Assembly (NCBI GenBank): GCA_025839675.1
Contig: CP104013.1
Coordinates: 3,105,121-3,169,120, forward strand
DNA: 64,000 nucleotides
Direction: 5' to 3'
DNA from: Candidatus Lokiarchaeum ossiferum
GTDB lineage: Archaea > Asgardarchaeota > Lokiarchaeia > Sigyniarchaeales > Promethearchaeaceae
The first letter of the stretch is position 1, and each line of letters opens with the position of its first letter. The notes under the pieces were generated by a model. That model was not told the origin of the DNA and made no database searches. It saw nothing but the letters and a program-made list of their open reading frames with translations. Below, piece by piece: positions 3,140 to 64,000 of this stretch. The position numbers and the translations under genes are program-made.

Positions 3140-6330
<3,191 letters not shown>

Positions 6331-13549: not shown

Positions 13550-13636
13550 CTTATTTTTAAAACATTAAACATCTCTCTAAAAATTTTGAAATAGGTACTA
13601 AAAAAAACTTATAAAACAGTAGGGACGAAGAATTGA

Positions 13637-47624: not shown

Positions 47625-47691
47625 ACATTAAATAGAACATATCCTATATTTAAGACTTGGTGGATGAAAATTTATCAGATCCCAAAAAGAA

Positions 47692-48207: not shown

Positions 48208-48228
48208 TTCCCCAGAAATACAAATCAT

Positions 48229-48570
48229 CTATTTTTGATCTCTCGATGAATAGATAATAAATCCTTTCTTGCGCAATATATCAAACCCTATTTTTTTATA
48301 CATTTTATGAGCTCGTTCATTGGCTGATCCTGACAACAGCATTACCTCGGTACACTTTTTATCCCAGGCAAAGTTCAAAGCATGATTCACTATGGCCTTC
48401 CCGTAACCGTTGCGACGATAATCTCTATGGATCACCACATGTTCAAGAAACCCATAACCATCCCCACCCCGAATGAAAGAGGGTGTTATGGTCAAAATAA
48501 AAGAAGCAATTATTTTCTTATCTTCTTCTCCAATGAAATAGGTAATACACGGGCTTTTCTGTACTTGATC
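48229..48570 (-). pseudogene. GNAT acetyltransferase, apparently disrupted (in-frame TGA within a region coding GNAT-like sequence)
   Basis: The annotated ORF starts at a TTG. In the same frame upstream, ...QENLEIWDQVQKSPCITYFIGEEDKKIIASFILTITPSF... continues GNAT-like sequence after a TGA stop, and no plausible Met is present. Confidence 0.4.
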
Positions 48571-48768
48571 CCAGATCTCTAAATTTTCTTGTCATTTAAT
48601 AGTGGGAAATTTTCTTGGCTTGCATAATGATGATAAAGCGGAATTAATTTTCCGATTTCATCCTCGTTGATTTTTCGTATCTCCACACCAACTTTCCTCT
48701 GGTATCACTAATGATATTAAATTAAGAAATAACCTTGTTTTCAAAGGGAATTAAAAGGAAAGAGAAAT

Positions 48769-48827
48769 GGCGCAGGTGTCAGGGATCGAACCTGCGACCT
48801 GCCGATTAACAGCCGACCGCTCTACCG
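48769..48827 (-). tRNA. Partial tRNA-Asn(GTT)-like gene: 3' portion only (D-stem 3' strand through acceptor 3' strand plus CCA). No 5' half found adjacent.
   Basis: The reverse complement reads GGTAGAGC-G-GTCGG-CTGTTAA-TCGGC-AGGTC-GCAGG-TTCGATC-CCTGA-CACCTGC-G-CCA. Upstream sequence lacks the acceptor 5' strand and D-stem. Confidence 0.5.
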
Positions 48828-48966
48828 AAGATGTACCATATGCACTCAAATACATAATTCTTAACACCAAAATTCCTAGAAAATTGCTTGGCGTAAGATT
48901 TCGAGTATAATCCTTCTCTATGATAAAGTTTTAATTAATCAAAAACTCAAAAAAAAAAGAAAAAAA

Positions 48967-51900
48967 TTAAACAATTTCAATCCAAAAAGCTTTTGTTCCA
49001 TGATAATCTATGGTGAAAGTCTTAGCAAATAAGTCGGTGTCCGAAGGAATAAATGTCTCAAATTTTAAAGAAAATGATTCTCCTTCTTCAAATTTTAATT
49101 GAGATTCAAATTTAAGAGTTATCGGCCCAACAGGAATTGTGGTCCAAGCACCATAGTTTCGATTATACTCATGATCATTCACCATTTCAATTTCCCAAGG
49201 ATTATTTGGTAATAACTCCTCAGTTATACCGATTTGTTCACGTTGAGAGTAATATTGAGATCTGGGATCAAAAGTAATCCCTGGATAATCTGTATTGAAT
49301 TCACCTAAGAATTTTCTGAAGCGAAGGATTTCTTTGCTAGGATCTTGCTCCAAAATAATCCTTTGATAAGCGTGAACAGAATTGGCATCTTCGTATTTGT
49401 ATCCTATTCCTTTAACGTTTCCCCAATATTCAATTCCAACTATCACATCTTCTTCAATATTAAGGATAGGATTTTTAACAGTGAATGAGACTTTTTCTAA
49501 TTCCCCTAATTCAACATCAATACCTGCACCTCCTGTATCTTTAGATCCAATAGAAACACCGGCTTTTAGTTCAATTTTTTTTGTAGAAAAAGATGTTAAA
49601 CCTGGTGTTATATCCCAATCCAAATTAATCCCATTTGGAGATGTTGGAATATAGATTCGATATTCTGGAATGACAATCTTTTCAGAAGATATCAAATCCA
49701 CCGAATTTTCAACTGCCTTTCCAAGTTTTATGTTATCCATATAGACTTGGAAGGAAGCATCATTAGTATTACTTGTATAGATTTCGAGTTCCGTTACATC
49801 CCACATTTCAGTGCTGGCACGAGGTTCATCAGCGATCTTCACACCATCAACCCAAGCTTGCCATTGATTATTATCCATATCCATTAGTAAATCGATTTTA
49901 TACATGCGATTTGATTCTGGCAAACAATAAATATCATCAGGACCAATATAACTGTTGCCATATACATCATTAGTGACCGAAAGAACGTTTTCTGGAAAAT
50001 CACCATAAGTTTGGTGCAAACTTAATCTAATATAATCTTCGTAGGAAACAATATCATTATCTTTGAAAATGATTGTAAAATCTGGAATGCCAGTGTATCC
50101 GATTTCAAATGTGAAAAGATATTTTCCATAATTATCCATTTCAATATCTTTACTAATTTTCACTTTTTTATTATTTAAAATTCCTCCAGTACTGGAATCT
50201 ACAAATTCTATAACCCTTCCATAATAATCAGTTATTGGAGAAATTATAACATTAACAGAACAATCTGTTCCTTCAGAAATAGTATAACCAGAAGGATTTG
50301 TTCCAATACCTGCATTCTCATAATTATCCGTAACAGGGTATCCAGCATCCTTTGGATTAGAAAAATACAACTTGATCTCGTCATCATCAGTAAACCCATC
50401 ACTATCAGTATCTTCTAATCCAGGATTCGTAGTAAGTTCATAATGCTCATATCCGTCATTATATGTATCACCATCAGAATCTGGATTTGTAGGATTAAGG
50501 TTCACATAACCTTCATATTCATAGATGCCAGTAGCTTCAGAGCTTAAATCATCTCGTACAAAATCTAATTCTTGCTTATCAGTCAATCCATCAAAATCTG
50601 AATCAATTTCTGAGGGATTAGAATAATATGTTTTGTAGAATTTTGGTCGAGAATTTGGATCTGAATAAATTAAATCATATCCAGTTACTTCTTCGCTATC
50701 AGTTAAACCATCTTCATCTTTATCTGCTAAAGCATTCAAAGGATTTGTATTGTATACTAAAACTTCATCTCCATCAGATATACCATCATTATCTGAATCA
50801 GAATCACTTGGAGATAAATCATCTAACCTAGAATAATGAGCTTCATAGTTTCCATCCCATATATTAAACCAATTATAAGAATATTCTTCATAATTGGACA
50901 AATCATCATTATCAGTATCCCTATCCACATTTGGAAGATGGAAATAGCTTCTGTATCCTTCAGAAGATACTCCTAACCCATCAATTCCAAAATTCATAGC
51001 ATCATATCCACTATGTGTGTACATCCCAAGCGAGTTGATGTAGGAATAAGAAAGAACTGGAATATCACTTCCCACTTTTTGACCATCAATCCAAGCATCA
51101 ACTTGATTATTGCTGAAATCTAATTCAATGTGAACTTGATACCATTGATTCAATTGATAATCAAGAATTGGAATCCAAGTTCCTGTATCTCGTCTAATTC
51201 CAAGATGACCACCCCAGATTGGCATGTAAAATGGTTGTCCTGATCCGTGAAAAGTTAGATATGCATATCCATTTGATGAAGGCGATGGAGAATACCACCA
51301 GAAGTCAATAGAATCACCATCCTGACTCATAGTATTAAAACTGACAGAAGCGGTTGGACTTGTTGTTGGTGTGTTTCCTTGGGCAAGATATAATGCATTG
51401 GGATGATTTTCAATATTTTTAATTGTTGCAGTTGCTGTTCCAGGATTATAAGTCCACTCTTGCCAATTTGTGGTTCCAATTATTTTGAAGCTTTCAATAT
51501 CGGGATGATTTGAAAATGCTTCATACCCTTGGGAGGAAACTCCTAAACTATCAAATCCAAAATTCATTTTTTGTTCAGTACCCTGTGTATACATGAAAAT
51601 ATTGTCAATTTCAGAATATGGAAGCACTGGAATATCTGATAGAGTTTTTATTCCATTTGCCCATAAATCCACTTCATTATTTGTGAAGTCAAATTCAACG
51701 TGCATATGATACCAGGTTGACCATTCAAAATTGAAATATTCCCATGCACTTGTATCCTTTCTTATTCCAAAATGATTTGACCATATTGGGAAGTAAAAGG
51801 GCCGTGAACTCCCATCTTGCAAGCAAATATATGCATAACCAATCGTATCGGAAGAAGGAGAATACCACCAAAAATCAATATAATCATTATCTTGATTCAC

Positions 51901-53325
51901 CGCAGGAAAAGACACAGCTACAGTTGGACTAGTTATTGAATTAACATGATCTTCTTGGGAAAGATAGAGAGAAGTCGGATGATCTCCAATATTCGTAATA
52001 GTAGCAACTTCCGTCCCAGATTGAATATTAAAATCATTCCATTCAATACTATTTTCAACAAAGAAGCTATCAATCGTATAATGATTATTATAAGCTATAT
52101 ACCCTTCAGAAGACACACCCAGAGCATCAAAGCCAAAATTGGTATCACCAAGATCACTGTGGATATACATATTGATGGAATTAATGAAGGAGTAATCTAG
52201 GACTGAAACATCAACAAGTGATTTTTCCCCATCAACCCATAAATCCACTTCATTATTCGTAAAATCAAATTCAACATGCACATGATACCACGTTGAATAA
52301 TCAAAATTGAAGTAGTTACTCCAGCTTCCAGAACTATCGCGAATTCCAAAGTGATTAGCCCATATAGGAAAGTAGAAGGGTTGTCCTGTATCTTGTTTAA
52401 ATGTAATATATGCGTACCCATCGGAACCAACTGAAGGCGAAAACCACCAAAAGTCAAGATAATCTTGATCGTCATTCAATGTATTGAAATTAATGGATGC
52501 TGATGGATTAGTGGTTACTGGATCTTCTTGAGATAAATAGAGTGCATTATAGCGGCCATCAATATCAGTCAATACCGCTAATTCTGAACCTTGAGATATA
52601 CTCCAGCGGTTCCAATCGATGCACTCACTTTGATCATATCCTATCCCACTACCATCCATAGGATTTAGAGGATTTAAATTATTGATATATTCCCATCCAT
52701 CAGGCATTCCATCTTGATCTGTATCCATATTGTTGGGATCTGTTCCCAAAGTATTCGTTTCGAGCCAATCATTTAACCCATCATTATCAGTATCATCAAC
52801 AAGATAAACGTAAATCGACTCAATTCTTTTTCCTGTTAAGTAAAAGCATTCTTCCCCATCAGCATATTCGGGAGAATCACCTAAGGATTGAATGTGTCCA
52901 CGATATCGGATTTGATATTTATACTCAGGACAGTTTACTAGTCGAATTGCAAATTTTTCAATCTGTAGTGCCTGTCCTCTTGTTCCAGCATAATTTCCAT
53001 CACTTATCCACTGTGTCCACCCATTTCCTTGAATATATACTTTGTATTCAATGTCACAATCAAATGTATTGTCTACAATACTTAATTGAATCCCTTCTAA
53101 TCTTTTTGCAATACCTTTATGACCAACCCATTGGTGGTCAGTTCCAACAATATCCCCATAGGATTGTTGATGAACCAAAACGGATAAAATTTGGCTACTA
53201 ACGTTTGGTACGTTCAACTCCCTTTGAGATTCTTCTTGATCCTCTGTAAATCCAAATTCTCCAGAATTGGATAGAGTTAGGCTAAGAAGAAGTAAAAATG
53301 CAATATATTTTTGTTGATTTTTCAT
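48967..53325 (-). CDS. Giant secreted or surface protein (1452 aa): signal peptide, thrombospondin type-3-like Ca-binding repeats, three tandem ~190-aa lectin/ConA-like repeats, C-terminal beta-rich domain
   Basis: N-terminus MKNQQKYIAFLLLLSLTLS is signal-like. Repeats DFWW(F/Y)SPS...GYAY...PFYFPIW.NHFGIR...WYH.H.EFDF.NNEVD occur three times (about nt 50913 to 52617). Asp-rich DxDxDG motifs are present (DTDNDGLNDWLE, DSDNDGISDGDE, DSDGDTYNDGYE, DTDSDGFTDDDE). Confidence 0.8.
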   Translation of the reverse strand: MKNQQKYIAFLLLLSLTLSNSGEFGFTEDQEESQRELNVPNVSSQILSVLVHQQSYGDIVGTDHQWVGHKGIAKRLEGIQLSIVDNTFDCDIEYKVYIQGNGWTQWISDGNYAGTRGQALQIEKFAIRLVNCPEYKYQIRYRGHIQSLGDSPEYADGEECFYLTGKRIESIYVYLVDDTDNDGLNDWLETNTLGTDPNNMDTDQDGMPDGWEYINNLNPLNPMDGSGIGYDQSECIDWNRWSISQGSELAVLTDIDGRYNALYLSQEDPVTTNPSASINFNTLNDDQDYLDFWWFSPSVGSDGYAYITFKQDTGQPFYFPIWANHFGIRDSSGSWSNYFNFDYSTWYHVHVEFDFTNNEVDLWVDGEKSLVDVSVLDYSFINSINMYIHSDLGDTNFGFDALGVSSEGYIAYNNHYTIDSFFVENSIEWNDFNIQSGTEVATITNIGDHPTSLYLSQEDHVNSITSPTVAVSFPAVNQDNDYIDFWWYSPSSDTIGYAYICLQDGSSRPFYFPIWSNHFGIRKDTSAWEYFNFEWSTWYHMHVEFDFTNNEVDLWANGIKTLSDIPVLPYSEIDNIFMYTQGTEQKMNFGFDSLGVSSQGYEAFSNHPDIESFKIIGTTNWQEWTYNPGTATATIKNIENHPNALYLAQGNTPTTSPTASVSFNTMSQDGDSIDFWWYSPSPSSNGYAYLTFHGSGQPFYMPIWGGHLGIRRDTGTWIPILDYQLNQWYQVHIELDFSNNQVDAWIDGQKVGSDIPVLSYSYINSLGMYTHSGYDAMNFGIDGLGVSSEGYRSYFHLPNVDRDTDNDDLSNYEEYSYNWFNIWDGNYEAHYSRLDDLSPSDSDSDNDGISDGDEVLVYNTNPLNALADKDEDGLTDSEEVTGYDLIYSDPNSRPKFYKTYYSNPSEIDSDFDGLTDKQELDFVRDDLSSEATGIYEYEGYVNLNPTNPDSDGDTYNDGYEHYELTTNPGLEDTDSDGFTDDDEIKLYFSNPKDAGYPVTDNYENAGIGTNPSGYTISEGTDCSVNVIISPITDYYGRVIEFVDSSTGGILNNKKVKISKDIEMDNYGKYLFTFEIGYTGIPDFTIIFKDNDIVSYEDYIRLSLHQTYGDFPENVLSVTNDVYGNSYIGPDDIYCLPESNRMYKIDLLMDMDNNQWQAWVDGVKIADEPRASTEMWDVTELEIYTSNTNDASFQVYMDNIKLGKAVENSVDLISSEKIVIPEYRIYIPTSPNGINLDWDITPGLTSFSTKKIELKAGVSIGSKDTGGAGIDVELGELEKVSFTVKNPILNIEEDVIVGIEYWGNVKGIGYKYEDANSVHAYQRIILEQDPSKEILRFRKFLGEFNTDYPGITFDPRSQYYSQREQIGITEELLPNNPWEIEMVNDHEYNRNYGAWTTIPVGPITLKFESQLKFEEGESFSLKFETFIPSDTDLFAKTFTIDYHGTKAFWIEIV

Positions 53326-53794
53326 TTTATAACTTCCAGATCAAATTATTCTGACTTAAGACAAATTTTCCTCTAAACTAAAAATCACTAATTGTGTAAA
53401 ACCCCTACCATATGAAAAAGTCGCACAAATTTTTCGGATCATGAGCTAAAATTACTCTCGAAAAAAGACTTTTTGATTTTTGGATCAAATTACTGATTTT
53501 TTTACTATCTGTCCAAATCTGAACATTACTAATATAGTTAAAGAGGTATTTAAACTGCACGTTGTTAGTAAAACGCTATGATTTTTATTGAATAAATATT
53601 TAAAATAAACTTATTCCTATAATTCATTAATTACTTCAATTTTTTACCTTTTCAACAAATTTAAACTATTTATGTTACAAGTCATAATTCCACATTCAAT
53701 TCCCTGTACTTGTAAAATAATTTAGTGTTCAAGCTTCCAATTCTAACTCAAACATTAAATTATGCTCGGATGATAGGACTTAACTTGAAAAAAA

Positions 53795-56014
53795 TTACTT
53801 TAACTTCAGTTTAATATTGTCAATTAATTTTTCTTTGATAAATCCCTCTTCTCGAATTAATCGAAAATATTGCCCTTCCTCAAATTTAAACCCAAATTGA
53901 TCCCCACACTCCATGAAAACTTTGTGGCGCAATACCTTCCCAGGAAAATGTTTCCACTCTTCACCACTGGCAACTATTTCCTGTATTCGGTCTGAATATT
54001 TTGCAAACTGTTTGAGATAATACGGTTTATCTACAGATATATGACATTTTTCGCTGGTTAGTATATTCACAGTATTAAGAAAATTATCCAGCAATTCATT
54101 TTCCGATGTTGTACCACCCTTGATTCCCTCGATTATCGGTTTTATTAACTCTTTTTTTTCATCCTCCGAAAATACCTTTGGAAACTCCTCGAAAAAGAAT
54201 TTCAACTTCTTTGTCATCTTCATTGTCTCATCGATAGAAGTTTTGATTAGATTAGACACCTTTTCAAGGGTAATCTCTTCCTCTGAATCTGGATTGGATC
54301 TTTCAATAAGTTCTTTGAGTAGCTCAGGATTGAGGTATAAATTTTCGATTTCCCGCACTGGGAGTAGTACAATTTTATCTCGGATTTCTTTTGCCTTCTT
54401 ATTGCGAATTTCCTTATTACCTTCATCATTATCCAAAATAATGAGAAATTTGAAGTTTTTATTGGTAAAATTCTCTATCAACTGTGCATTTGCCCAATAA
54501 TGTAAATCTCGTTTGCCTCCTAACGGTTGTAGTATGATTCTTTGCTCTTCTAAAATTTCCGGAATTGCTTGTTTGAAAAACTCTACATCATCCTTTCCTT
54601 CCACCAATATCATCCCATTATTCATGAGATAATCTGAAGGTTTGATGCCTAAATCTTCAAAAACTTGTGGTATATTTTCTGCTTTTTCATTATATACATG
54701 AGTTATTTTATCACTTCGTTTTACCCTATGAATGCTCCATCCCTTTTTCATACTATCCAAGAAATATGGTGAATGAGTAGTAATTAAAACTTGAAATCGG
54801 CTCAAATTTTCCTCGATTATTGATAGGAGTATTTTTTGCAAATCAGGATGTATAAAAAGTTCCGGTTCTTCAATTAACAGCAATCCATTTTCTTTTGTTT
54901 CTAATATTGCAACTAAAATTGTTACCAATTGCTGAATCCCCTTCCCCAATTTGTCAAAAGTAAGTTTGTACTCTAAATCTTCTTCTAATACATAAGGAAT
55001 TGTCAAGGGATATTTCTCAATAGGAATGTTTGTTTCTGGGTAATAATCAATATTATAAAGAGAATAATCTGGTTGATGTAAAAAATTTTGATTGATCTCT
55101 TTAATATTAGGATACAATTTGCTCAGATAGTGGTTGAGTTTTTCTAATTTTTCTTTCTCATTTGTGTTATAGCTAAGAATTTTTAGTGGGACATTTTCTC
55201 CATCATATTCAAAATGAAAAGGCTTTGTAGAAGCCTCCACCTTATAGAATGGTAGGAATGAACGATCTTCAACTACCATATTCATCTTGGAATAGAAATC
55301 TATAATCGGTGATAAGAAAAAGTGCAATAAAGGATTGCTATGAACTCGTTTATCAAAAATGGATCTATTATTCAGAAGTTGATTGCCAGGATTCGGAAAT
55401 CCAGTATTGAAAATCGAATTTGGAAAAAAATGCCATTCAAATGAATTACTATTAGCAATGAGTTTTTTCCTTGGTTTGCTAAGTTCCATGTTTCTAATAG
55501 AATATTCATGTCCTACTGAAGTCCTATCCACAAAATTATAGGAAATCAGTCCATTTTTGAAAGTAACTCTTCTAATAAAAATTTCATAACTTGACCCAGG
55601 AGCTACTTCAAATTCATATACAATATTTTCAAATGCCTCCTCTAATAATATCGATTCCTCAGGGTTGAATCGATTATCTTTGAAAAATTTAAATAATTTT
55701 GGGTTTTTCAAGTAGTCTTTTGAATGTTCCCTAAATAGCCTTGATGCTTGATCACGAAAATATTCCAAAATCTTTGATCTATCAAATTTGAATTCTAAAT
55801 TTATCTTTACCGGATGCTTCTGGGAATTGAACTTAATCAATTTTTTATCTAAAAGCTTCCCCGACCTTATACTCTTTAAAATTTTAAATAAATTGCTTTT
55901 CCCTGAATTATTAGGTCCAATTATAACGCCTAAATCCCCAATATTCTCGAATACTTGGTGATCGAAACTTAGCAGATTGAATATTTCTATTCGATGCAAC
56001 CGCGAAATTGTCAT
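53795..56014 (-). CDS. OLD-family nuclease: N-terminal ABC-type ATPase plus C-terminal TOPRIM domain (class 1 OLD / Gabija GajA-like)
   Basis: Walker A GPNNSGKS, Walker B LLLIEEPELFIHP, H-loop ITTHSPYF. TOPRIM MILVEGKDDVEFF and ILDNDEGNKE (DxD). Confidence 0.8.
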   Translation of the reverse strand: MTISRLHRIEIFNLLSFDHQVFENIGDLGVIIGPNNSGKSNLFKILKSIRSGKLLDKKLIKFNSQKHPVKINLEFKFDRSKILEYFRDQASRLFREHSKDYLKNPKLFKFFKDNRFNPEESILLEEAFENIVYEFEVAPGSSYEIFIRRVTFKNGLISYNFVDRTSVGHEYSIRNMELSKPRKKLIANSNSFEWHFFPNSIFNTGFPNPGNQLLNNRSIFDKRVHSNPLLHFFLSPIIDFYSKMNMVVEDRSFLPFYKVEASTKPFHFEYDGENVPLKILSYNTNEKEKLEKLNHYLSKLYPNIKEINQNFLHQPDYSLYNIDYYPETNIPIEKYPLTIPYVLEEDLEYKLTFDKLGKGIQQLVTILVAILETKENGLLLIEEPELFIHPDLQKILLSIIEENLSRFQVLITTHSPYFLDSMKKGWSIHRVKRSDKITHVYNEKAENIPQVFEDLGIKPSDYLMNNGMILVEGKDDVEFFKQAIPEILEEQRIILQPLGGKRDLHYWANAQLIENFTNKNFKFLIILDNDEGNKEIRNKKAKEIRDKIVLLPVREIENLYLNPELLKELIERSNPDSEEEITLEKVSNLIKTSIDETMKMTKKLKFFFEEFPKVFSEDEKKELIKPIIEGIKGGTTSENELLDNFLNTVNILTSEKCHISVDKPYYLKQFAKYSDRIQEIVASGEEWKHFPGKVLRHKVFMECGDQFGFKFEEGQYFRLIREEGFIKEKLIDNIKLKLK

Positions 56015-56114
56015 ATATTATTAGTTTTGGACAAAGGTGTAGTTAAATTTTTAGATTAAAACTCAATTTCCTTTAAACTTTGATAAGGAAAAAAAAAACA
56101 CGTATATAATTAAA

Positions 56115-56420
56115 TCAATATCCATATTTTTGCATGATATCAGTAATATCTCTTCCATAGTATTTCACGTAGGCCACAATTCGCCCATAGGTATCAATCG
56201 CCACTTGTTTAATGGTAACCAAAGATCCTACAGGTATTAAAGAGGATAATATTCTTTTTGCTTTGAAATAACCAGATTCTCCCTTTTCAGGTGTGTTAAT
56301 ATTAGCAATTCGAACATATTTATTACCCGTTATAATGAAAGTATCTCCATCTACAATCGCAGCTACTTTTTTTCGATATATATTTGATGTTGGGTATTTC
56401 TTCGAAATTGAAGATGTCAT
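56115..56420 (-). CDS. Staphylococcal-nuclease (SNase/thermonuclease)-like protein, short form
   Basis: VDGDTF...VRIANINTPE...YGRIVAYV follows the SNase OB-fold motifs. Overlaps the upstream gene by 4 nt (ATGA). Confidence 0.6.
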   Translation of the reverse strand: MTSSISKKYPTSNIYRKKVAAIVDGDTFIITGNKYVRIANINTPEKGESGYFKAKRILSSLIPVGSLVTIKQVAIDTYGRIVAYVKYYGRDITDIMQKYGY

Positions 56421-57049
56421 ATTTTATCACCTCCATCCAAACTCCTAAGATATGTTTTAAATTGATTTTCTGAAAGCGCAAAGCAGTTATTAGAATTGTG
56501 ATACTTGTTAATATCTAGCAACCGCTCGTCAGTATAAAAGGAACCACTGCAAATGGCATAAAACTGCCCAGATTCATTTGATTCCGAATTTTCAAACAAG
56601 CGAACAATATTTTGCATCCTACTTGATTGAGAACCTCCACTCCCATCTGAATGAAATCGAACAAAATAGGACCTCTTTCCTTTAATTTTACATGAAAGAT
56701 GAATTGAACTTGATTTTACATTCAATCGCTTTTTTGTGATCTTTCCGTCTGTAATGTAGAGTCTTGGAGTTCTCCAATGAGTGATCAAATTTGAAATAAA
56801 AGTCTGGTTGGTCAGATATTTCGTAAATTCCCTCAGATAAGTATTTCCTCGCTTCAAATTTAGGTCCTTACTTACGCATATTGCAGCGAATAATTTATCT
56901 TCAAGAAATTTCTGTTCTATATCCTTAATTGGAATTCCCGTACGGTCATGTAACCGGATAAGCTGTTTTACCTTATGGCCCTTCATAATTCTCTTCCGAA
57001 TTATGGAGATTTGCGTGGTGACGTCCTTTCTAATCTGAAATTGGTACAT
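56417..57049 (-). CDS. Hypothetical protein co-transcribed with the SNase-like and OLD nuclease genes
   Basis: 210-aa basic protein with no recognisable motif. Shows translational coupling (4-nt overlap) to the SNase-like gene. Confidence 0.4.
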   Translation of the reverse strand: MYQFQIRKDVTTQISIIRKRIMKGHKVKQLIRLHDRTGIPIKDIEQKFLEDKLFAAICVSKDLNLKRGNTYLREFTKYLTNQTFISNLITHWRTPRLYITDGKITKKRLNVKSSSIHLSCKIKGKRSYFVRFHSDGSGGSQSSRMQNIVRLFENSESNESGQFYAICSGSFYTDERLLDINKYHNSNNCFALSENQFKTYLRSLDGGDKI

Positions 57050-57288
57050 TAATTAATTACTTCCTTTACTGAGTGGTGGTTTGTGTGTGACAGAATCAAT
57101 CCTTCGAGTAAGCTATTTGATCAATCTACGTTGACTTACGCGCGCGATCGTTACCCGTTACAATAACGAAGGTCACACGCGTATTTAAATCAAGGTATTT
57201 ATAGAGAAGTACCCTTCCTCAACCGACAAAAATTCAAAAATTTCACTGTTGGATAGAAAAACACGCAAGAATTCCAATATTTCATAAT

Positions 57289-58161
57289 GTGAATATTTTT
57301 AATATTTCACTCGTACTGTTAATATTGTTAGTGAAAAAAAAAATGAATTCCTTAGATTTAGTTGAAGAACGAAATATTTTAGTCGTTCCAATCGGTTTAG
57401 AAAATGAGCGGGTTGTTAAAAGCTGCCAAATTTACCCTGTGAACGTCATTTATCTCTTGAAGAGTAACTTTGAATCTAATTCTGATCATAAGGAAAAAAA
57501 CTCATCCCAATGGGGAATAGAACAATACTCAAAAACAATTGCATCTGAAGTCATTAAGAAATTTGAAAATACTTTTTTTGAAATTCAACCAAAAAATTGC
57601 CATCTCGGCTCCCTCCCGAGCACAATTTCTATTTTAAATGACATCTATGAAATTGAACAGAAAAAGGGAAAATTGAACAAAATTTACATCAATATCTCCA
57701 CCGCATCCAAATTATTCGCAATTGGGGCCTATATTTTTGCCTCTCAATTCCCCGATATATGCAAACTTTTCTATTTGGCCACAAATAATTATCTTCTCTT
57801 GGAACACTTGAAATCGGAAAAAGGGGATTTAGAAAAATTAAAAACGGAATTTAGAAAATTTGGTCTAACAAAAGGACCTTTCAAAGTTGTGAACATCCCA
57901 ATTCTGAAATCGGACCCTTTTTCAACCGATGAAAAACGATTGATCAATTATTTAGCCCAATTTGACCACATCAATTCGATAAAAGAAATATTGGAAAATC
58001 TCAAAAAGGATACCAACGCTAAAGAAAGAATGAATCTTCGCAGATCCCTTGAAAAACTCGAGAAAAACAATTTGCTGATACTAAAAAAAAGTGGAAAATC
58101 GGTTCAGGTTCTTATATCTGATGAATTGAAACAGCTCGCTGGCTCCTTTATACTGGAGTAG
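57289..58161 (+). CDS. Putative CARF-like (Rossmann) N-terminal domain plus C-terminal winged-helix regulator (Csa3-like architecture)
   Basis: ILVVPIGLENERVV (beta1 plus Gly loop) and NISTASK (a CARF dvTgGtK-like motif). C-terminal INYLAQFDHINSIKEILENL...NNLLILKKSGKSVQV resembles a wHTH. Confidence 0.3.
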   Translation: MNIFNISLVLLILLVKKKMNSLDLVEERNILVVPIGLENERVVKSCQIYPVNVIYLLKSNFESNSDHKEKNSSQWGIEQYSKTIASEVIKKFENTFFEIQPKNCHLGSLPSTISILNDIYEIEQKKGKLNKIYINISTASKLFAIGAYIFASQFPDICKLFYLATNNYLLLEHLKSEKGDLEKLKTEFRKFGLTKGPFKVVNIPILKSDPFSTDEKRLINYLAQFDHINSIKEILENLKKDTNAKERMNLRRSLEKLEKNNLLILKKSGKSVQVLISDELKQLAGSFILE

Positions 58162-58200
58162 CTTATATTCCGCTGTAATTCTTATACGATTCATTCAATT

Positions 58201-59241
58201 TTAAAATAATATCGCAATCACAATCGCCAAAATGGACAGGACCAACTCAATGCGCCATTTCGAAGTTTCTTTCCTATATTTCCGTTTCTCCATTGCATTT
58301 TCAATTCCATCAATGAAATTCTTCAACTCTTCTACCACTTGATCTGGTTCTTGGTTCTGTTTCGAATTGAAATGATATATATACCATGTTTTAACCTTCC
58401 CAAAAATCGCTTTCCATTCGTGTAGCTTTTCCAGTGAAAATATTTCATCATGTAAATCAATCGATATTTCATTCAGCTCTTCCTTATCAAACCCGGTCCC
58501 ATAATATAACTCAATCCATTTTCCATTATTTTGCTTGATTGTTTCAACTATCTCTTCGGAAGGTATCTTTTGTGTAAAAATTTGTCGATATTCTTCAACA
58601 AGATCATTTTCTTTTTCATAAACCCTTAATAAGATAAGATTCTTCGCATTCTCCAAGTTATTAAAGCAAAAAGTGAAATAATTCCTAAAAACTGCACAGA
58701 TATTCACTAGTACGAATACTATAAGACTTATATAAACAAATAGTAGATAATGGTCTTGAGTTTTGATTACAGCATAGTATCCAAAGGCTATAGTGCCTAT
58801 ACTGATAAAAATACTGAAAAGCGTTGAAAAAAAGAGAATATTATGATTCTTATCCTTCCTTAAAAAACTGGTTGAATATTTCAAAATCTGTATTTCCCTT
58901 TCTATTGTTTGTTTTGTATCCTTCGTATTCTTCTTGTCGAAATAATCTAAAAAATCTGAGAGAAATTCATAATTTTTTTCAGTATCCTCGACATTATATG
59001 GTAGTTCTTTCTTTGAAATCCAATAAGAAATTAAAATCCTAAGAAAAATTATAATGACGAATGTCCAAATTATTAATCCTTGCTCGTTTTCATCGAAAGA
59101 TCCTAATATTAAGATCATGCAAAAAATAATTCCATTAATTATTCTGGTTCCTGGAATTTCTGACTTAAATGTGGAGACTTTTTCTTCATATTCCCCGAGA
59201 ATTTTCAAAATATCATTTTTATTTATCTTTTTTTGATTCAT
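58201..59241 (-). CDS. Multi-pass membrane protein (about 5 TM) with a cytoplasmic acidic domain; hypothetical
   Basis: Hydrophobic helices at about aa 33 to 53, 57 to 77, 131 to 151, 157 to 177 and 322 to 344. No catalytic motif recognised. Confidence 0.45.
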   Translation of the reverse strand: MNQKKINKNDILKILGEYEEKVSTFKSEIPGTRIINGIIFCMILILGSFDENEQGLIIWTFVIIIFLRILISYWISKKELPYNVEDTEKNYEFLSDFLDYFDKKNTKDTKQTIEREIQILKYSTSFLRKDKNHNILFFSTLFSIFISIGTIAFGYYAVIKTQDHYLLFVYISLIVFVLVNICAVFRNYFTFCFNNLENAKNLILLRVYEKENDLVEEYRQIFTQKIPSEEIVETIKQNNGKWIELYYGTGFDKEELNEISIDLHDEIFSLEKLHEWKAIFGKVKTWYIYHFNSKQNQEPDQVVEELKNFIDGIENAMEKRKYRKETSKWRIELVLSILAIVIAILF

Positions 59242-59737
59242 CTTATTAAATTAATTGGATTATTATGGATTTTAAGCCATTTATTAGGACTTTAATACAT
59301 TCCATCATTTCTCGATTTATATATGGATAATCAAATTTTTTGAAATCCATTAGAACCGAATGTGTGAGATTTTTTTTATTTTAAATGATTAAAATAGTTC
59401 TAATCAGTAATTTTAGAAAAAAGTCATGGAAACGACCAATTGACAATCAATCGCAAAGTAAATCAATCATGAATTTTAAGAAGAGGCTAAAAGCGCAAAT
59501 GGAAGACTAATAGACTTATAATTAAATGATAACCAATTTTTTTTTTTATTTTCGATTATTAAATGATTCTACTTATTTTTTTTAATCAAGATGGAAAGCA
59601 TGTGGGTGCACAATTTTTTAATCCAAATTTTTTTTTACAAATCTATAATTTTCATTAGTAAAATTGTGTCTATTAGTTTGATTTGAAACATAGGACTGAT
59701 TGATTTAAAATTTGATTCAAATACTTGGGTTTTTGAT

Positions 59738-60421
59738 ATGAAAAAAAAAATATTTGCATATTATCGGATTTCAACTGAGAAACAAAAAAAAAAGAATACT
59801 CAGGAAAATCAGAAAATTGCAATTTATAATTTTGTTGAAGGTTTAGACGTTGAAATTGTGAATGAATTTGAAGATTTGGGTATTTCAGGGGCAGATAATG
59901 ACCGCCCACAATTCAATCTAATGCTTTCTAAATTGAATGAAGTAGAAGGATTAGTAATCTATGATTTAGACCGATTAACGAGAGATTTTGAAATGGGAGT
60001 AAACTTAATGTTTATGTTGAAAAATTCAAAAAAATCTTTGTATATTGCTCGAACCAAAGATATCAAAGATTTTTCAGATGATTCCGAGCAATTAATGACC
60101 ATTATCAAATCATGGGTTTCTGCACTTGAACGAAAGAAAATTAAAGAAAGACAAAAAATAGGAATTCAACGATATAAAGAAACAAAAGGTCGTTGGGGTA
60201 GAAAGAAATCCTTTGGAAAATATAAAAATCCAGAACAATTTTGGAAAAACTATGATATCTATAGAGATTTGGGTATTTCCAAGACATCCTGTGCAAAATT
60301 ATTAGGTGTCTCTCGTTCAACGATGAATAGACGGATAGAAGAACGTGAAATAAATAAGTCGAAAATCAAAACTACCCCAATTAATAACAAAATCAAAGAA
60401 TGGAGCGAACCAAAACTTTAA
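59738..60421 (+). CDS. Small serine recombinase (resolvase/invertase type): catalytic domain plus C-terminal HTH
   Basis: IFAYYRISTEKQ (catalytic Ser motif), DRLTRD, C-terminal HTH ISKTSCAKLLGVSRSTMNRRIE. Confidence 0.8.
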   Translation: MKKKIFAYYRISTEKQKKKNTQENQKIAIYNFVEGLDVEIVNEFEDLGISGADNDRPQFNLMLSKLNEVEGLVIYDLDRLTRDFEMGVNLMFMLKNSKKSLYIARTKDIKDFSDDSEQLMTIIKSWVSALERKKIKERQKIGIQRYKETKGRWGRKKSFGKYKNPEQFWKNYDIYRDLGISKTSCAKLLGVSRSTMNRRIEEREINKSKIKTTPINNKIKEWSEPKL

Positions 60422-60688
60422 AGGAAGTTTTTTTTATAAATTACTCTAATAATCGCTATATCGAAGAATCGAAGAAAAATTGAAATGTTAACGGTAAATT
60501 GAGCTTCCAGAGTGGCTTTTTCTAATTTCTGTCGGCTAATTTTTAAAGTAAAAGGATGAATAACACCTAAGCCCACCGGCCAAGGTGTTATAGAAGAAAG
60601 CCCACCGGCCATCTCCATGTTATTAATCTTCAAGAAAGTATTTAAAGATCACCATACATGTTTTTTATAGGTTTATTTAAAATCAAAA

Positions 60689-61477
60689 ATGATTAGAATG
60701 ATTATTGCATATCTTGACGAAACTGGAGATCCTGTCTATCGAAGGGGTGGCCCTAAATGGTTTGGTATAACTGCCGCAATCTTTCATGATTCAAAATTAC
60801 TTGATGGAATAAATGTGATGAAGTCATTCAATCAAAGTAAATCCGAAGAATATGACTGTGATTTTGAAATACATGCAAGGGAATTTTCCAGCTCGAAAAA
60901 AGAACCTTATAATGCAATGAAAGTTGAAGAAAAAATAGAATTATTTACAGAATGCTTACATACTGTCAAAAATACTGGTGCTTCAATTTGCGGTGTGTTT
61001 GTTGATAAAGTTAAGCATAGTTATTGGCATGGTAAATATGATTTTTTAAAAAATGTAGTTATGAACCTATTTGAAAGGATAGGTAGATATCAGATTGCAA
61101 ATTATCCTAATGAAGCCATTCTGATATTATATGACCAACCTTCTGCCCATTTAAGACCAATTATTAAACAATATTTCAAAGAAAGATTAGAAGTCGGTTC
61201 AAGATATGTCAAACCTGCGTTTTTCTTGAAAGAAATCTTATATGTTGAATCTAAATTTCATCAACCTATTCAAATAGCAGATTTAACAGGATATATTGTA
61301 AGAAGATTGATAGAAAAACGTATAGATGGTACATTTTCCAGTTTTCTAAAGTATGTTGATGACTTGTATAAAATAATTCGACCAATGTTAGATTTCAATC
61401 CAACAACAAAAGAAATATATGGGGCAGGAATTAAAATTATTGAAAGTAATGACAGGAAATATTATGGACGTTTCTGA
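60689..61477 (+). CDS. DUF3800-family protein
   Basis: Hallmark N-terminal IAYLDETGD and C-terminal PIQIADLTGYIV motifs of DUF3800. Confidence 0.7.
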   Translation: MIRMIIAYLDETGDPVYRRGGPKWFGITAAIFHDSKLLDGINVMKSFNQSKSEEYDCDFEIHAREFSSSKKEPYNAMKVEEKIELFTECLHTVKNTGASICGVFVDKVKHSYWHGKYDFLKNVVMNLFERIGRYQIANYPNEAILILYDQPSAHLRPIIKQYFKERLEVGSRYVKPAFFLKEILYVESKFHQPIQIADLTGYIVRRLIEKRIDGTFSSFLKYVDDLYKIIRPMLDFNPTTKEIYGAGIKIIESNDRKYYGRF

Positions 61478-61513
61478 ACAGAGTGTTTGCTTAACCAAAT
61501 ATGAAAATACCTT

Positions 61514-61870
61514 TTATGGATCCAAAAATTTTCTTTTTCGGTTATTTGCCGTTATTTTCTTATAATTCTCAGTAGTTTCTCTTACGTTATCTATTCCAGT
61601 ATCAATTAAGATTTGTTCAAATTTGCTACTTAAATTTTTGAATTTTATTGCATTATCAGCATAAGAATCAATATATTCATCAGGTTTTTTTTCAGGTTCT
61701 TTATTAAGGAATTTTAATAAGGAATATGATTTTGCCCCATGTTCAGCAGACAATTGGGCTTTGTGGTCGAGTTCTTCATATTTATCATAAGTAGCCGCAA
61801 AAATTGCATATAATTCAATTAAATCTAAAGGAATATTTAAAATTGGCATTTCATCTTCTTCAAAAGACAT
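61514..61870 (-). CDS. Hypothetical acidic protein
   Basis: 118-aa ORF convergent with the DUF3800 gene; no motif recognised. Confidence 0.35.
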   Translation of the reverse strand: MSFEEDEMPILNIPLDLIELYAIFAATYDKYEELDHKAQLSAEHGAKSYSLLKFLNKEPEKKPDEYIDSYADNAIKFKNLSSKFEQILIDTGIDNVRETTENYKKITANNRKRKFLDP

Positions 61871-62036
61871 AATTGCATTAAAAAAATAACGGATAAAAAG
61901 TTTAGTTCTTTTTTTCGGTTCCGATTATCTGGTATACGGTTCCGAACCCTTTAGAAATAGTTAATTTGTCATCCTTCTTCAGAAAATATCTACTAATGTC
62001 GGTTCCGAATTGATTTTGCTAATAAATGGGACCGAA

Positions 62037-62063
62037 ATTAGCGAGATTAGCGAGATTAGCGAG
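62037..62063. repeat. Perfect tandem repeat 3 x ATTAGCGAG (9-mer), next to four copies of a GG(T/A)(T)CCGA(A)TT motif at 61916 to 62036
   Basis: Read directly: attagcgag attagcgag attagcgag. The upstream tcggttccgaatt motif occurs twice, plus ggttccgattat and gggaccgaaatt. Confidence 0.8.
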
Positions 62064-63052
62064 TATTTCAGACAATAAGGTGATTTCATCACCCCACGTG
62101 ATATTTTTTCTTGGATTGATTCTAAGAATCGCAAATATGGACAGAAAATAGAAAAAACCCCTATTGGGTGATATGTTCAGTTTTCAAGCAAATCCCTTCC
62201 GCCGCGACACTTTCCTTTTTATCCTAAAAATCGAGAAGAGCTTAATTCTATTAACAAGAATTTAATTTCGAGCGTAAAGTCTGTTTAAATTCCTCAAATT
62301 TTTCGGTTACTCATTTTTTGCCAATTATTTCTCTTTTATTTAAAAAATAAACTTGATTGCTCAATTTATTATGCCATTTTAGAATAAGTATAAATGATAT
62401 TTATATCTACATATAAACTGAATTTATACATATCTATATATTATGTTTATTATTGAATGAAATTGGATAATTATATAAGACTTAATTTAATTATAATATA
62501 TTAGAGACGATTAATTTTTCTGACTCTTTTCTAGGTGAATATAAATGTTAAAAAAAGAAAAAAAATTGCAAAGAAAGAAGCTCAGTGCATTTAAAAATAT
62601 TAAAGAACTTCTAAAACGAATACTAGCTTATATCGTGTTAAAAAAACTGATTTCCATAATAGAATTGGTTTTGCTTTAAACCATTTGTGTGAGTTTTTTT
62701 TTTTTTTTTTTTAATAATTTTTTCTAAATTTTTATTTCTGTCTTAAAAAATTAAAGTGAATTGCTACATTATTGGCTATACCAGTGTTTTATCATAAGAA
62801 TCCACTATGTCGACTCAATCATATCCTAATTTTCCTAAAATTTGACCCAAAAGCATTTTATCAAATCTAAAGTATTTCAAAATGATTATGCTATTCATAT
62901 TGACCAAAATCAAATCCCCTTCAGTTTTATAATCGAGCTTGAATTTGATAATCAATATATGACACATGTTGGATAATCTGAGATTTGAACAAATTTGTAG
63001 TTACATATTGCTTGTGATTAATGATTGTTGGGACCAAGTAACTTTTACAATA

Positions 63053-63083
63053 GAAAGAGGAAATGGCACAGGTGACATGGACC
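63053..63083. repeat. Imperfect direct-repeat copy of the tRNA-Asn 3' end plus flank (partner at 48758 to 48793); candidate att-like boundary
   Basis: GAAAGAGGAAATGGCACAGGTGACATGGACC versus GAAAGAG-AAATGGCGCAGGTGTCAGGGATCGAACC at 48758; about 26 of 29 aligned positions match, same orientation. Confidence 0.45.
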
Positions 63084-63217
63084 TAACTCGCTGATTACAC
63101 TATATCTATACGTAGACGTTTCATTTTCAAAAATAATTTGTAGGACGAATCCATCATTTCATGCATTGACTCCCTTAATCAAAACTATAAATACACATCC
63201 TAACAATTACCTATTAG

Positions 63218-63748
63218 GTGTTTGAAATTCCGAAAGATGATCTCAATCAAGAAAAAGTCGACTACTTAAAAACCGTCTTCTCCCACAATCGCAGTATGAT
63301 CCAACTTGCAGACAACAAAGCCAGCATTTTAATCCGAATTATTGTAGTTATCCTCCCAATTATTTTTGGAATCGATTCCTACTTAACTACAATTACTCTC
63401 CATAATAGCCTAAAAACCTTTCAATATGTTAGCTTTATCATTTGTATGGTTACCTTCATCATTTCATTCTTCTTATCGACAGGTGTTCTAATGGCTCGAT
63501 TTGCTGAATATGATGATCATATCTTCTTTTCAAATATTGAAAAAGATTCCCTTGAAGATTATCAAAATATTATTGAAGAAATGGATGATTATGTCATTTT
63601 TGAAGATTATATCAAAGAAAATTATGCAATTGCCAAAATCAATAAAAAAAAGTATCAATGCTACAATATTTCCTTTTGGTTCCTTAATGCTGCGGTACTT
63701 TTATTGGTAATTCGATATATCTTATTGTTTACTTACCTTTTTTATTAA
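63218..63748 (+). CDS. Small membrane protein with 3 predicted TM helices and an acidic central loop (hypothetical; possible effector-like)
   Basis: Hydrophobic helices at about aa 36 to 58 and 68 to 92, and a C-terminal one at about 150 to 172. N-terminal MIQLADNKAS motif. Confidence 0.45.
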   Translation: MFEIPKDDLNQEKVDYLKTVFSHNRSMIQLADNKASILIRIIVVILPIIFGIDSYLTTITLHNSLKTFQYVSFIICMVTFIISFFLSTGVLMARFAEYDDHIFFSNIEKDSLEDYQNIIEEMDDYVIFEDYIKENYAIAKINKKKYQCYNISFWFLNAAVLLLVIRYILLFTYLFY

Positions 63749-64000
63749 ATCTCAATTAAATTTTCTTTTTTTATGTCTCTCTCCCACTATACGCAAATAT
63801 CTTGTAATTTTTCAATTCTTGAAAATTTGACTTCATTTTCCGAAAATATGAACAACAATAAAACGGAGGTTCAATTTCCTCACAATTATCTTTCTTTTCC
63901 TTGGATAGTTGAAAGAAAACATCGTACCCAATGCAAATCGTGATTTTTTCTTTAAAAGAAGCATGCTTTTTTCCAATGGATTCTAATCTCTTCGCTGCTA

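What the first reader, a model, noticed from the sequence alone, without database searches (positions are those of the whole stretch)
48769..48827. Orphan 3' half of a tRNA-Asn(GTT)-like gene
The anticodon arm, T arm, acceptor 3' strand and CCA are recognisable on the minus strand, but the 70 nt upstream lack an acceptor 5' strand and D stem-loop. Three explanations are possible: a remnant of an integration event that displaced the 5' half, a split tRNA whose 5' half is encoded elsewhere, or a gene with a very long intron. The T-stem also has a mismatch.
Basis: seen in the sequence. Interest (0 to 1): 0.5.

Follow-up and report, generated by a model that had tools for sequence, protein, structure and literature searches.

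The report
Truncated tRNA-Asn relic beside defence island
The orphan tRNA-Asn piece is real, but it is a dead leftover of a normal tRNA-Asn gene whose first 15 bases were lost where strain-specific, defence-gene-rich DNA joins the chromosome of the Asgard archaeon Lokiarchaeum ossiferum B35; this is an ordinary kind of scar, not a split tRNA.

Summary
Minus strand 48828-48768 carries nt 16-76 of a tRNA-Asn(GTT), including the encoded CCA, and no working 5' part.

The window comes from Candidatus Lokiarchaeum ossiferum B35. At the orthologous site in a second genome of the species (CP163304.1, presumably strain B36) there is a complete, intron-less tRNA-Asn (Rfam 68.7 bits). A more distant Lokiarchaeum contig has the same, and four related metagenome contigs also carry complete tRNA-Asn genes. 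B35/B36 homology (98.9% over 10.6 kb) begins exactly at tRNA nt 16.

Upstream, B35 has at least 15 kb of DNA with no counterpart at the orthologous B36 locus: an OLD/AriA-like ATPase, a CARF protein, a PycTM effector, a serine recombinase and a giant ChW protein. B36 has tRNA-Glu and core genes there instead.

The 44 nt just upstream are a diverged (26/44) copy of the tRNA 5' end and promoter, which suggests recombination with a tRNA-like attachment sequence. The relic has two substitutions at positions invariant in six relatives.

The integration-remnant reading is supported. Split tRNA and long intron are not. The other island end and B35's working tRNA-Asn could not be reached. Interest is low.

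The parts
48768..48828 (-). Relic of tRNA-Asn(GTT), nt 16-76: end of D-loop, D-stem 3' strand, anticodon arm, variable loop, T arm, acceptor 3' strand, G73 and CCA. Anticodon at 48810-48808. B35-specific substitutions are C39>T at 48805 and T65>A at 48779.
   Evidence: Sequence. 59/61 identity to the complete tRNA-Asn of CP163304.1. Homology with B36 and with the outgroup starts exactly here.
48829..48843 (-). Degenerate arm colinear with tRNA nt 1-15 (GCATATGGTACATCT against GCAGGTGTAGCTTAG, 7/15 identical). It gives 5/7 acceptor pairs and no functional D stem.
   Evidence: Rfam end-to-end alignment at 17.2 bits; alignment to B36.
48844..48872 (-). Diverged homologue of the region immediately upstream of the intact tRNA-Asn (promoter-proximal). 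Together with 48829-48843 it is 26/44 identical, ungapped and anchored at the breakpoint. Similarity largely fades beyond about 50 nt.
   Evidence: only 3 of 127,912 window 44-mers match the B36 sequence as well. Over the same 200 nt, B36 and the roughly 84%-identical outgroup match at about 94% (189/200).
48873..64000 (.). DNA with no counterpart in the 20-kb orthologous B36 locus (island, continuing beyond the window end). It holds a ChW/TSP3 giant protein (48967-53325 -), an OLD/AriA-like ATPase-nuclease (53795-56014 -), an SNase-like protein (56115-56420 -), a CARF-like HFX_2341_N protein (57343-58161 +), a small serine recombinase (59738-60421 +), DUF3800 (60689-61477 +) and a PycTM effector (63218-63748 +).
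   Evidence: blastn of the B36 and outgroup loci against the window; Pfam, PADLOC and NCBIfam. The junction is confirmed by an independent read assembly, L001.
48229..48690 (-). GNAT acetyltransferase pseudogene immediately downstream of the relic (premature stop plus frame change). It is the first shared 'core-side' gene.
   Evidence: Translation. Intact 152-aa orthologue P0052 in CP163304.1.

Best explanation
The feature is a non-functional relic of the chromosomal tRNA-Asn(GTT) gene of Candidatus Lokiarchaeum ossiferum B35.

Shown: related genomes carry a complete, intron-less tRNA-Asn at this exact site. It lies between a divergently oriented tRNA-Glu and a GNAT gene. In B35 only nt 16-76 survive. 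The promoter, nt 1-15 and the neighbouring tRNA-Glu are missing from this locus. In their place is at least 15 kb (at least 20 kb counting the other junction contig) of DNA rich in defence and mobility genes, with no counterpart at the orthologous B36 locus.

Inferred: the island entered by recombination inside the tRNA gene, using a tRNA-Asn-like attachment sequence carried by the incoming DNA. This would explain why the first roughly 45-50 nt on the island side are a 59%-identical, colinear copy of the tRNA 5' end and promoter region. On this reading the relic is the attR-type repeat at the downstream edge of the island. A working tRNA-Asn should have been regenerated at the far edge, or exist elsewhere in the genome.

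The relic cannot form an acceptor stem or a D arm, so it does nothing in translation. It has begun to drift (C39>T; T65>A turns the G49.U65 wobble into a G.A mismatch).

My confidence that it is a dead relic at a strain-specific junction is about 0.9. My confidence in the att-type integration mechanism specifically is about 0.55.
For: Identity of the organism:
- The GNAT pseudogene product is 99% identical to an NCBI L. ossiferum protein from a 6,035,313-bp contig, the published size of the B35 genome.

Intact gene in relatives:
- The sister genome CP163304.1 (locus L010) has a complete tRNA-Asn at 9844-9919, found by ARAGORN and scoring 68.7 bits with Rfam.
- L010 9859-20459 aligns to window 48828-38228 at 98.9%. 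Nothing upstream of 9859 aligns to the island.
- The outgroup contig L014 (about 84-86% identical) has the same gene order, an identical 76-nt tRNA-Asn and the same breakpoint.
- Four JGI contigs all carry complete tRNA-Asn genes with C39 and T65. Two of them have a tRNA-Glu(TTC) called next to it, and a third has a Glu-like tRNA 3' end just upstream.

The B35 junctions:
- The left junction, on B35 read-assembly contig L012, follows B36 up to 21 nt past the 333-aa gene and then diverges into flavodoxin/Fer4 and FtsK/HerA-like genes.
- The right junction is reproduced in independent Logan assemblies.

The upstream arm:
- It is 26/44 identical to the intact gene's 5' end and promoter, at an empirical frequency of about 2e-5.

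Island content:
- OLD/AriA-like ATPase, CARF protein, PycTM, serine recombinase, DUF3800.
- The B36 preprint reports that Pycsar and Gabija are B35-specific (doi 10.64898/2026.02.13.705702).

Geometry:
- The island lies 5' of the relic and core genes lie 3' of it. This is the expected layout for the orphan repeat of a tRNA-targeting element (established knowledge of tRNA-gene integration).
Against: - The other end of the island was not reached, so no matching direct repeat or regenerated tRNA-Asn has been seen.
- The left junction does not lie in a tRNA. It is 570 nt upstream of the tRNA-Asn start, so the difference from B36 is a replacement (585 bp lost), not a clean insertion. At least one further event (a second insertion, a deletion or an inversion) is needed.
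- No tyrosine integrase is present in the 15 kb seen, only a small resolvase/invertase-type serine recombinase.
- A scan of GTDB representative genomes for the T-arm plus acceptor 21-mer, which the intact gene would match, returned no Lokiarchaeum hit. This means either that the species is not in that collection or that B35 has no second copy with this 3' end. I could not tell which.
- Two substitutions in 61 nt is no more than the local neutral rate. The adjacent 1.15 kb is about 7% diverged between the strains, so 'decay' is suggestive only.
Confidence: 0.85

Rival explanations
1. The relic is the same dead remnant, but made by illegitimate recombination, deletion or large rearrangement during island turnover rather than by att-type site-specific integration. 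On this view there is no duplicated repeat at the other end, and tRNA-Asn function comes from an independent gene copy. This is a sub-variant of the main claim and competes only with its mechanism.
For: B35 lacks 585 bp of the ancestral locus, including tRNA-Glu, rather than showing a clean insertion. The left breakpoint is not in a tRNA. No integrase was seen. The preprint reports 12 medium-to-long-range rearrangements between B35 and B36.
Against: The island-side arm is a colinear, 59%-identical copy of the tRNA 5' end and promoter. Random breakage would not produce this. A breakpoint inside a tRNA gene, with the 3' part retained towards the core side, is the classic integration geometry.
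Confidence: 0.3
2. The piece is the 3' half of a split (trans-spliced) tRNA-Asn. A separately transcribed 5' piece (nt 1-15) encoded elsewhere would pair with it and be joined by the splicing endonuclease and ligase, as in Nanoarchaeum equitans.
For: Two other tRNA genes in this window carry introns in the D loop, close to the nt 15/16 breakpoint. Asgard tRNAs are known to be intron-rich at non-canonical sites (PMC11291895). No second copy of the 3' end was found in the GTDB scan. CCA, the T-loop consensus and the downstream T-run are intact.
Against: The orthologous gene is continuous and intron-less in two syntenic relatives, and four further related contigs carry complete tRNA-Asn genes, so any split would post-date a 97.2%-ANI strain divergence. 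No 5' piece lies in the window or in the first 5.4 kb of the other junction. I could derive no bulge-helix-bulge arrangement by hand from the leader and the D stem. No complement of the 16-nt leader segment GTGCATATGGTACATC occurs elsewhere in the window. The relic has changes at two invariant positions, one of which breaks a T-stem pair.
Confidence: 0.03
3. The piece is the 3' exon of one gene with a very long intron, with the 5' exon far upstream on the same strand.
For: None beyond the absence of a nearby 5' part.
Against: The 15 kb upstream hold no candidate 5' exon. They contain genes on both strands, including a 4.4-kb ORF. The orthologue has no intron.
Confidence: 0.01
4. It is a complete tRNA-Asn gene that decayed in place by point mutation only, with no recombination junction.
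For: The 76 nt are colinear with the intact gene without indels, and the Rfam model can be aligned end to end.
Against: Divergence jumps from 2/61 to 8/15 at one point, largely fades beyond about 50 nt upstream, and gene content changes completely there. Uniform decay cannot give that step.
Confidence: 0.03

Closest known systems
Partial tRNA-gene repeats (attR/attL remnants) at the borders of integrated plasmids, proviruses and genomic or defence islands in archaea and bacteria, for example SSV/pNOB8-type integrations in Sulfolobales and tRNA-linked pathogenicity islands (from my own knowledge)
   Same: Only the 3' portion of the tRNA is retained. It sits at the edge of strain-specific, mobility- and defence-rich DNA, with the island on the 5' side and conserved core genes on the 3' side. 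An 'empty site' with an intact tRNA exists in a sister strain.
   Different: The partner repeat, the regenerated tRNA and an integrase were not observed. The left boundary is not at the tRNA (585 bp of ancestral DNA, including tRNA-Glu, is missing), so the island is composite or was rearranged. The island-side arm keeps weak homology to the tRNA 5' end and promoter, which is more than a minimal att core.
Split tRNA genes of Nanoarchaeum equitans, Caldivirga maquilingensis and Staphylothermus (from my own knowledge; discussed in the paper read)
   Same: A stand-alone 3' tRNA piece ending in CCA with no adjacent 5' part, in an archaeon whose other tRNAs have non-canonical introns.
   Different: No 5' half, no complementary leader/trailer and no BHB were found. 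The orthologue is continuous in close relatives. The piece has lost conserved bases.
tRNA pseudogenes and tRNA-derived fragments
   Same: It scores below the Rfam threshold (17.2 against 29 bits), cannot form a cloverleaf, and has substitutions at invariant sites.
   Different: It arose by truncation at a recombination junction, not by dispersed duplication or gradual decay.

Membership tests
Functional tRNA (Rfam RF00005) | Complete cloverleaf with a 7-bp acceptor stem and a D arm; score at or above the gathering threshold | tested here: not met
   17.2 bits against a threshold of 29; acceptor 5/7 pairs, no nt 8-9, D stem 3/4. ARAGORN finds nothing. The B36 orthologue scores 68.7 bits.
Functional tRNA (Rfam RF00005) | Conservation of positions that are invariant in orthologues | tested here: not met
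   C39>T and T65>A occur only in B35. Both positions are invariant in B36, L014 and L015-L018.
Split (trans-spliced) tRNA gene | A separate 5'-half gene whose acceptor and D strands complement the 3' half | tested here: inconclusive
   Absent from the 64-kb window and from the 6.6-kb left-junction contig. The rest of the B35 genome could not be searched.
Split (trans-spliced) tRNA gene | A leader complementary to the trailer of the partner, forming a bulge-helix-bulge at the junction | tested here: not met
   No complement of the 16-nt leader segment GTGCATATGGTACATC in the window. I could derive no BHB by hand from the leader and the D stem. Instead the leader is a degenerate copy of tRNA nt 1-15.
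Split (trans-spliced) tRNA gene | The split state is the form of the gene in the lineage (no continuous orthologue at the site) | tested here: not met
   A continuous, intron-less tRNA-Asn occupies the same site in CP163304.1 and L014.
tRNA-gene att remnant of an integrated element or island | A partial tRNA (3' part) abutting strain-specific DNA, with an intact tRNA at the empty site in a relative | tested here: met
tRNA-gene att remnant of an integrated element or island | A direct repeat of the same segment, completing an intact tRNA, at the other end of the element | not testable with these tools
   The other end lies beyond the window. There is no repeat in the window or in L012.
tRNA-gene att remnant of an integrated element or island | An integrase or recombinase encoded by the element | tested here: inconclusive
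   Only a 227-aa resolvase/invertase-type serine recombinase at 59738-60421. No tyrosine integrase in the 15 kb seen or in L012.
tRNA-gene att remnant of an integrated element or island | Cargo typical of mobile or defence islands | tested here: met
   OLD/AriA-like ATPase, CARF protein, PycTM, DUF3800 and an FtsK/HerA-like ATPase. Pycsar and Gabija are reported as B35-only.

The most novel reading that the evidence does not exclude
The island insertion has created a newly born split tRNA-Asn in L. ossiferum B35. On this reading, nt 1-15 with the original promoter now lie more than 20 kb away, and the two transcripts are still joined in trans, giving the cell its only tRNA-Asn. This would be the first split tRNA in Asgard archaea and a snapshot of how split tRNA genes originate at mobile-element junctions.
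Probability: 0.02. Interest if true: 0.85.

Novelty: new member of a known kind. Interest (0 to 1): 0.2.

Why it matters
On its own this is a routine genomic scar. It has three modest uses:
- It marks tRNA-Asn as one boundary of a B35-specific defence island in one of the very few cultured Asgard archaea, which helps explain why the two L. ossiferum strains have different defence repertoires.
- It warns annotators not to read orphan tRNA halves in intron-rich archaeal genomes as split tRNAs without a sister-strain comparison.
- The work showed in passing that standard tRNA finders miss D-loop-intron tRNAs in this genome, which may contribute to the low published count of 34 tRNAs.

Tried and rejected
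Searches for a 5' half:
- Exact and degenerate patterns for the acceptor-5'/D-5' strands, with variable spacing, G-U pairs and a leader-complement score. Only chance hits inside coding regions.
- The reverse complement of the putative leader in the window: only the leader itself.
- A permuted arrangement (5' half downstream): nothing on reading.

Searches for a second copy or an att partner:
- A k-mer comparison of 48700-48970 against the window and a T-loop pattern: none.

Public scans:
- The 29-mer from the anticodon loop to the T loop: 0 hits in genome contigs and 0 in metagenome contigs. In hindsight this was because B35's T39 is unique.
- The T-arm plus acceptor 21-mer in genome contigs: 3 chance hits in bacterial coding sequences.
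- Five viral-contig scans for the relic, the junction and the intact gene: 0 hits. So there is no evidence for a known virus attP.

Attempts to walk beyond the window end or into the B35 NCBI record:
- PycTM with two alternative starts, and P0001: not on record.
- A homologue search with PycTM returned only a 50%-identical protein.

Ideas I dropped:
- That the 4.8-kb Logan contigs L002/L003 (ChW gene plus relic only) indicate a recently transferred cassette. A 1.4-kb B35-like contig (L013) from the neighbouring run SRR32148624 suggests these runs are simply fragmentary assemblies.
- That B35-specific substitutions cluster next to the junction. The whole adjacent 1.15 kb is about 7% diverged in both lineages.
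- Hand-fitting a strict BHB to the iMet intron: unsuccessful, and its boundaries are left open.

The supplements of the B35 genome paper hold no tRNA list.

Full report
**1. What is in the sequence**

On the minus strand, 48828-48768 reads TCGGTA-GAGC-G-GTCGG-CTGTTAA-TCGGC-AGGTC-GCAGG-TTCGATC-CCTGA-CACCTGC-G-CCA. This is tRNA nt 16-76:
- the end of the D-loop and the D-stem 3' strand;
- an anticodon arm with GTT;
- a 5-nt variable loop;
- a T arm with a consensus T-loop and a G49.A65 mismatch;
- the acceptor 3' strand, discriminator G and an encoded CCA, followed by a T-rich run.

ARAGORN finds no tRNA in the whole window. Rfam at gathering thresholds finds only an archaeal 23S rRNA. When the Rfam tRNA model is run on 300 nt around the site, it aligns end to end at 48843-48771 with only 17.2 bits (threshold 29). 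It uses GCAUAUG as a 5/7 acceptor partner, has no nt 8-9, and gives a 3/4 D stem.

No sequence able to supply the acceptor 5' strand plus the D-stem 5' strand exists anywhere in the 64 kb. There is no second copy of the fragment.

**2. Which organism**

The window is 33% GC and archaeal. The frameshifted GNAT gene just downstream of the fragment gave a 99%-identical NCBI protein from Candidatus Lokiarchaeum ossiferum, on a 6,035,313-bp contig. That is the published size of the B35 genome, for which only 34 tRNAs were predicted (PMC9834061). Independent Logan read assemblies of the culture reproduce the locus base for base.

**3. The decisive comparison**

The 90% cluster of that GNAT protein has a second member. 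It is an intact 152-aa protein from a 6,274,825-bp L. ossiferum genome, CP163304.1. This is presumably strain B36, which the B36 preprint reports at 97.2% ANI to B35.

Its locus (L010) has this gene order:
- GTPase, HerA-like protein, thermosome, Tsr3;
- tRNA-Leu(TAG);
- a conserved 333-aa gene;
- an intron-containing Glu-like tRNA on the opposite strand;
- a complete tRNA-Asn(GTT) at 9844-9919;
- then GNAT, GNAT, DinB, PfkB, PAC2 and onward, exactly as in the window.

The B36 tRNA-Asn is GCAGGTGTAGCTTAG|TCGGTAGAGCGGTCGGCTGTTAACCGGCAGGTCGCAGGTTCGATCCCTGTCACCTGCGCCA. ARAGORN calls it and Rfam gives 68.7 bits.

BLASTN shows L010 9859-20459 equals window 48828-38228 at 98.9%. Nothing upstream of 9859 aligns to the island. 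The synteny break is therefore inside the tRNA gene, between nt 15 and 16.

A more distant Lokiarchaeum contig (L014, ENA, about 84-86% identical) has the same gene order, a tRNA-Asn identical over all 76 nt, and the same point where homology to the window begins.

Four JGI contigs found with a tRNA pattern all carry complete tRNA-Asn genes. Their acceptor stems covary and all have C39 and T65. Two have a tRNA-Glu(TTC) called next to the tRNA-Asn, and a third has a Glu-like tRNA 3' end just upstream. The intact arrangement is therefore ancestral, and B35 is the derived state.

**4. What replaced the 5' part**

Upstream of the break, the window holds 15.2 kb with no counterpart in the B36 locus:
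- a 1452-aa ChW/TSP3 surface-type protein;
- an OLD/AriA-like ATPase with a DUF4435/Toprim region;
- an SNase-like protein;
- a CARF-like HFX_2341_N protein;
- a small resolvase/invertase-type serine recombinase;
- DUF3800;
- a PycTM (Pycsar-type) effector.

GC content falls to about 28% at the far end. The preprint on strain B36 states that the Pycsar and Gabija systems are present in B35 and absent from B36.

The other side of the difference was reached through the 333-aa protein, which is identical in both strains. The B35 Logan contig L012 follows B36 at 99.1% to 21 nt past that gene. It then diverges into a flavodoxin/4Fe-4S protein, small ORFs and an FtsK/HerA-like ATPase, with no tRNA and no copy of GCAGGTGTAGCTTAG.

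At this locus, B35 therefore lacks 585 bp of the ancestral sequence: tRNA-Glu, the tRNA-Asn promoter and nt 1-15. It carries at least 20.6 kb of other DNA instead. L012 and the window do not overlap, so the true size and inner structure are unknown.

**5. How the junction looks**

The island-side sequence is not unrelated DNA right up to the break. Anchored at the breakpoint and without gaps, the 44 nt upstream in B35 match the B36 tRNA 5' end plus its upstream region at 26/44. Only 3 of 127,912 44-mers of the window match as well. Matches per 10 nt fall from 4-7 to mostly 0-4 beyond about 50 nt. Over the same 200 nt, B36 and the 84%-identical outgroup match at about 94% (189/200).

This step pattern is 59/61, then about 59%, then little or nothing. 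It is what one expects if incoming DNA carried a tRNA-Asn-like attachment sequence whose 3' part was kept similar and whose 5' arm had drifted, and recombination happened within the shared part. This is an inference.

The layout also fits established knowledge of tRNA-targeting elements. The island lies 5' of the relic and core genes lie 3' of it, which is the layout of the orphan (attR-type) repeat.

A second event is needed (nested insertion, deletion or inversion). The preprint counts 12 larger rearrangements between the strains.

**6. Is the relic still used?**

It cannot form an acceptor stem or a D arm with its neighbours.

It differs from the otherwise invariant gene at two positions. 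C39>T turns G31-C39 into a wobble pair. Both changes are B35-specific by outgroup polarisation.

This fits loss of constraint but is not strong on its own. The flanking 1.15 kb is about 7% diverged between the strains, so two changes in 61 nt is roughly the local neutral rate.

**7. The rival readings**

*Split tRNA.* Two other tRNA genes in the window have D-loop introns near the same position, which made this worth testing. Asgard tRNAs are known to be intron-rich at non-canonical positions (PMC11291895). Against it:
- the orthologue is continuous and intron-less in two syntenic relatives, and four further related contigs carry complete tRNA-Asn genes;
- any split would have to post-date a 97%-ANI divergence;
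- no 5' piece, leader/trailer complement or BHB is evident;
- the 'leader' is itself a decayed copy of nt 1-15.

*Long intron.* This is excluded within 15 kb, which contain genes on both strands.

*Uniform in-place decay.* This is excluded by the sharp step in identity and the change in gene content.

**8. What stays open**

I could not see where B35's working tRNA-Asn (and the tRNA-Glu) is. A scan of GTDB representative genomes with a 21-mer that the intact gene would match gave no Lokiarchaeum hit. Because the window itself is not found there either, I cannot tell whether the species is absent from that collection or whether B35 truly has no second copy with this 3' end. This is the main reason a small probability is kept for the split-tRNA reading. 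Searching the complete B35 genome would settle it in minutes.

**9. Verdict**

It is best explained as a truncated, non-functional tRNA-Asn relic at the edge of a B35-specific defence island. It is a new instance of a well-known kind of scar, with low intrinsic interest.

Noticed in passing
window 37272-37380 (-): An initiator-type tRNA-Met(CAT) gene (A1:U72, three G-C pairs in the anticodon stem, encoded CCA) is interrupted by an intron of about 30 nt in the D loop. It is missed by ARAGORN and sits below the Rfam threshold (27 bits). ARAGORN recognises it after in-silico intron removal. The exact splice sites and BHB were not resolved.
   Followed up: partly
window 13416-13550 (+): A tRNA-Leu(CAA) gene has an intron of about 50 nt between the D loop and the D-stem 3' strand. 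Default ARAGORN and Rfam miss it, and ARAGORN with its intron option miscalls it tRNA-Trp. It is recognised as Leu(CAA) after intron removal. Together with the iMet gene, this suggests the published count of 34 tRNAs for B35 is an under-count.
   Followed up: partly
window 48229-48690 (-): The GNAT acetyltransferase next to the relic is a pseudogene in B35 (premature stop plus frame change; RefSeq annotates only a 115-aa C-terminal piece). It is intact (152 aa) in CP163304.1. It also appears disrupted in the outgroup contig L014.
   Followed up: partly
window about 47680-48828, compared with L010 9859-11010: The first 1.15 kb on the core side of the junction (the two GNAT genes) is about 7% diverged between B35 and B36, split evenly between the two lineages. 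The overall figure for the 10.6-kb alignment is about 1%, with only a handful of differences in the next 600 nt. This is a divergence hot zone flanking the island.
   Followed up: partly
L010 9537-9644 (-), L014 8237-8344 (-): The tRNA beside tRNA-Asn in B36 and the outgroup has an intron of about 29 nt. ARAGORN labels it 'SeC (tca)'. Intron-less tRNA-Glu(TTC) genes are called beside tRNA-Asn in L015 and L016, and the anticodon loop visible in L018 reads CCTTCAC. By comparison, it is a tRNA-Glu(UUC) with a canonical-position intron and an unusual C at position 33. B35 lacks this gene at this locus.
   Followed up: partly
window 3137-6321 (-): A 23S rRNA gene with no 16S rRNA gene anywhere in the 64-kb window. 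This fits the report that one of the three rRNA copies of B35 is not in an operon.
   Followed up: no
window 61900-62070 (+): A non-coding stretch inside the island has several copies of CGGTTCCGA (two in an 18-nt direct repeat spaced 21 nt apart) and a short tandem run of GCGAGATTA. The Logan contig L001 ends just after it (62159). It could hold binding sites or an internal element boundary.
   Followed up: no
window 62150-63748 (+): The PycTM-type effector gene (63218-63748) is preceded by about 1 kb without any ORF over 50 aa, so no cyclase gene lies directly upstream in the window. Neither possible protein start is on record in the gene-position index.
   Followed up: no
window 48768-48803 (-): The relic can fold on its own into a minihelix. 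GCAGGT (nt 42-47) pairs with the acceptor 3' strand ACCTGC around the T arm, because GCAGG occurs twice in tandem (GCAGGTC GCAGGTT). The intact gene of relatives has this too, so it is a property of this tRNA-Asn sequence rather than of the relic.
   Followed up: no
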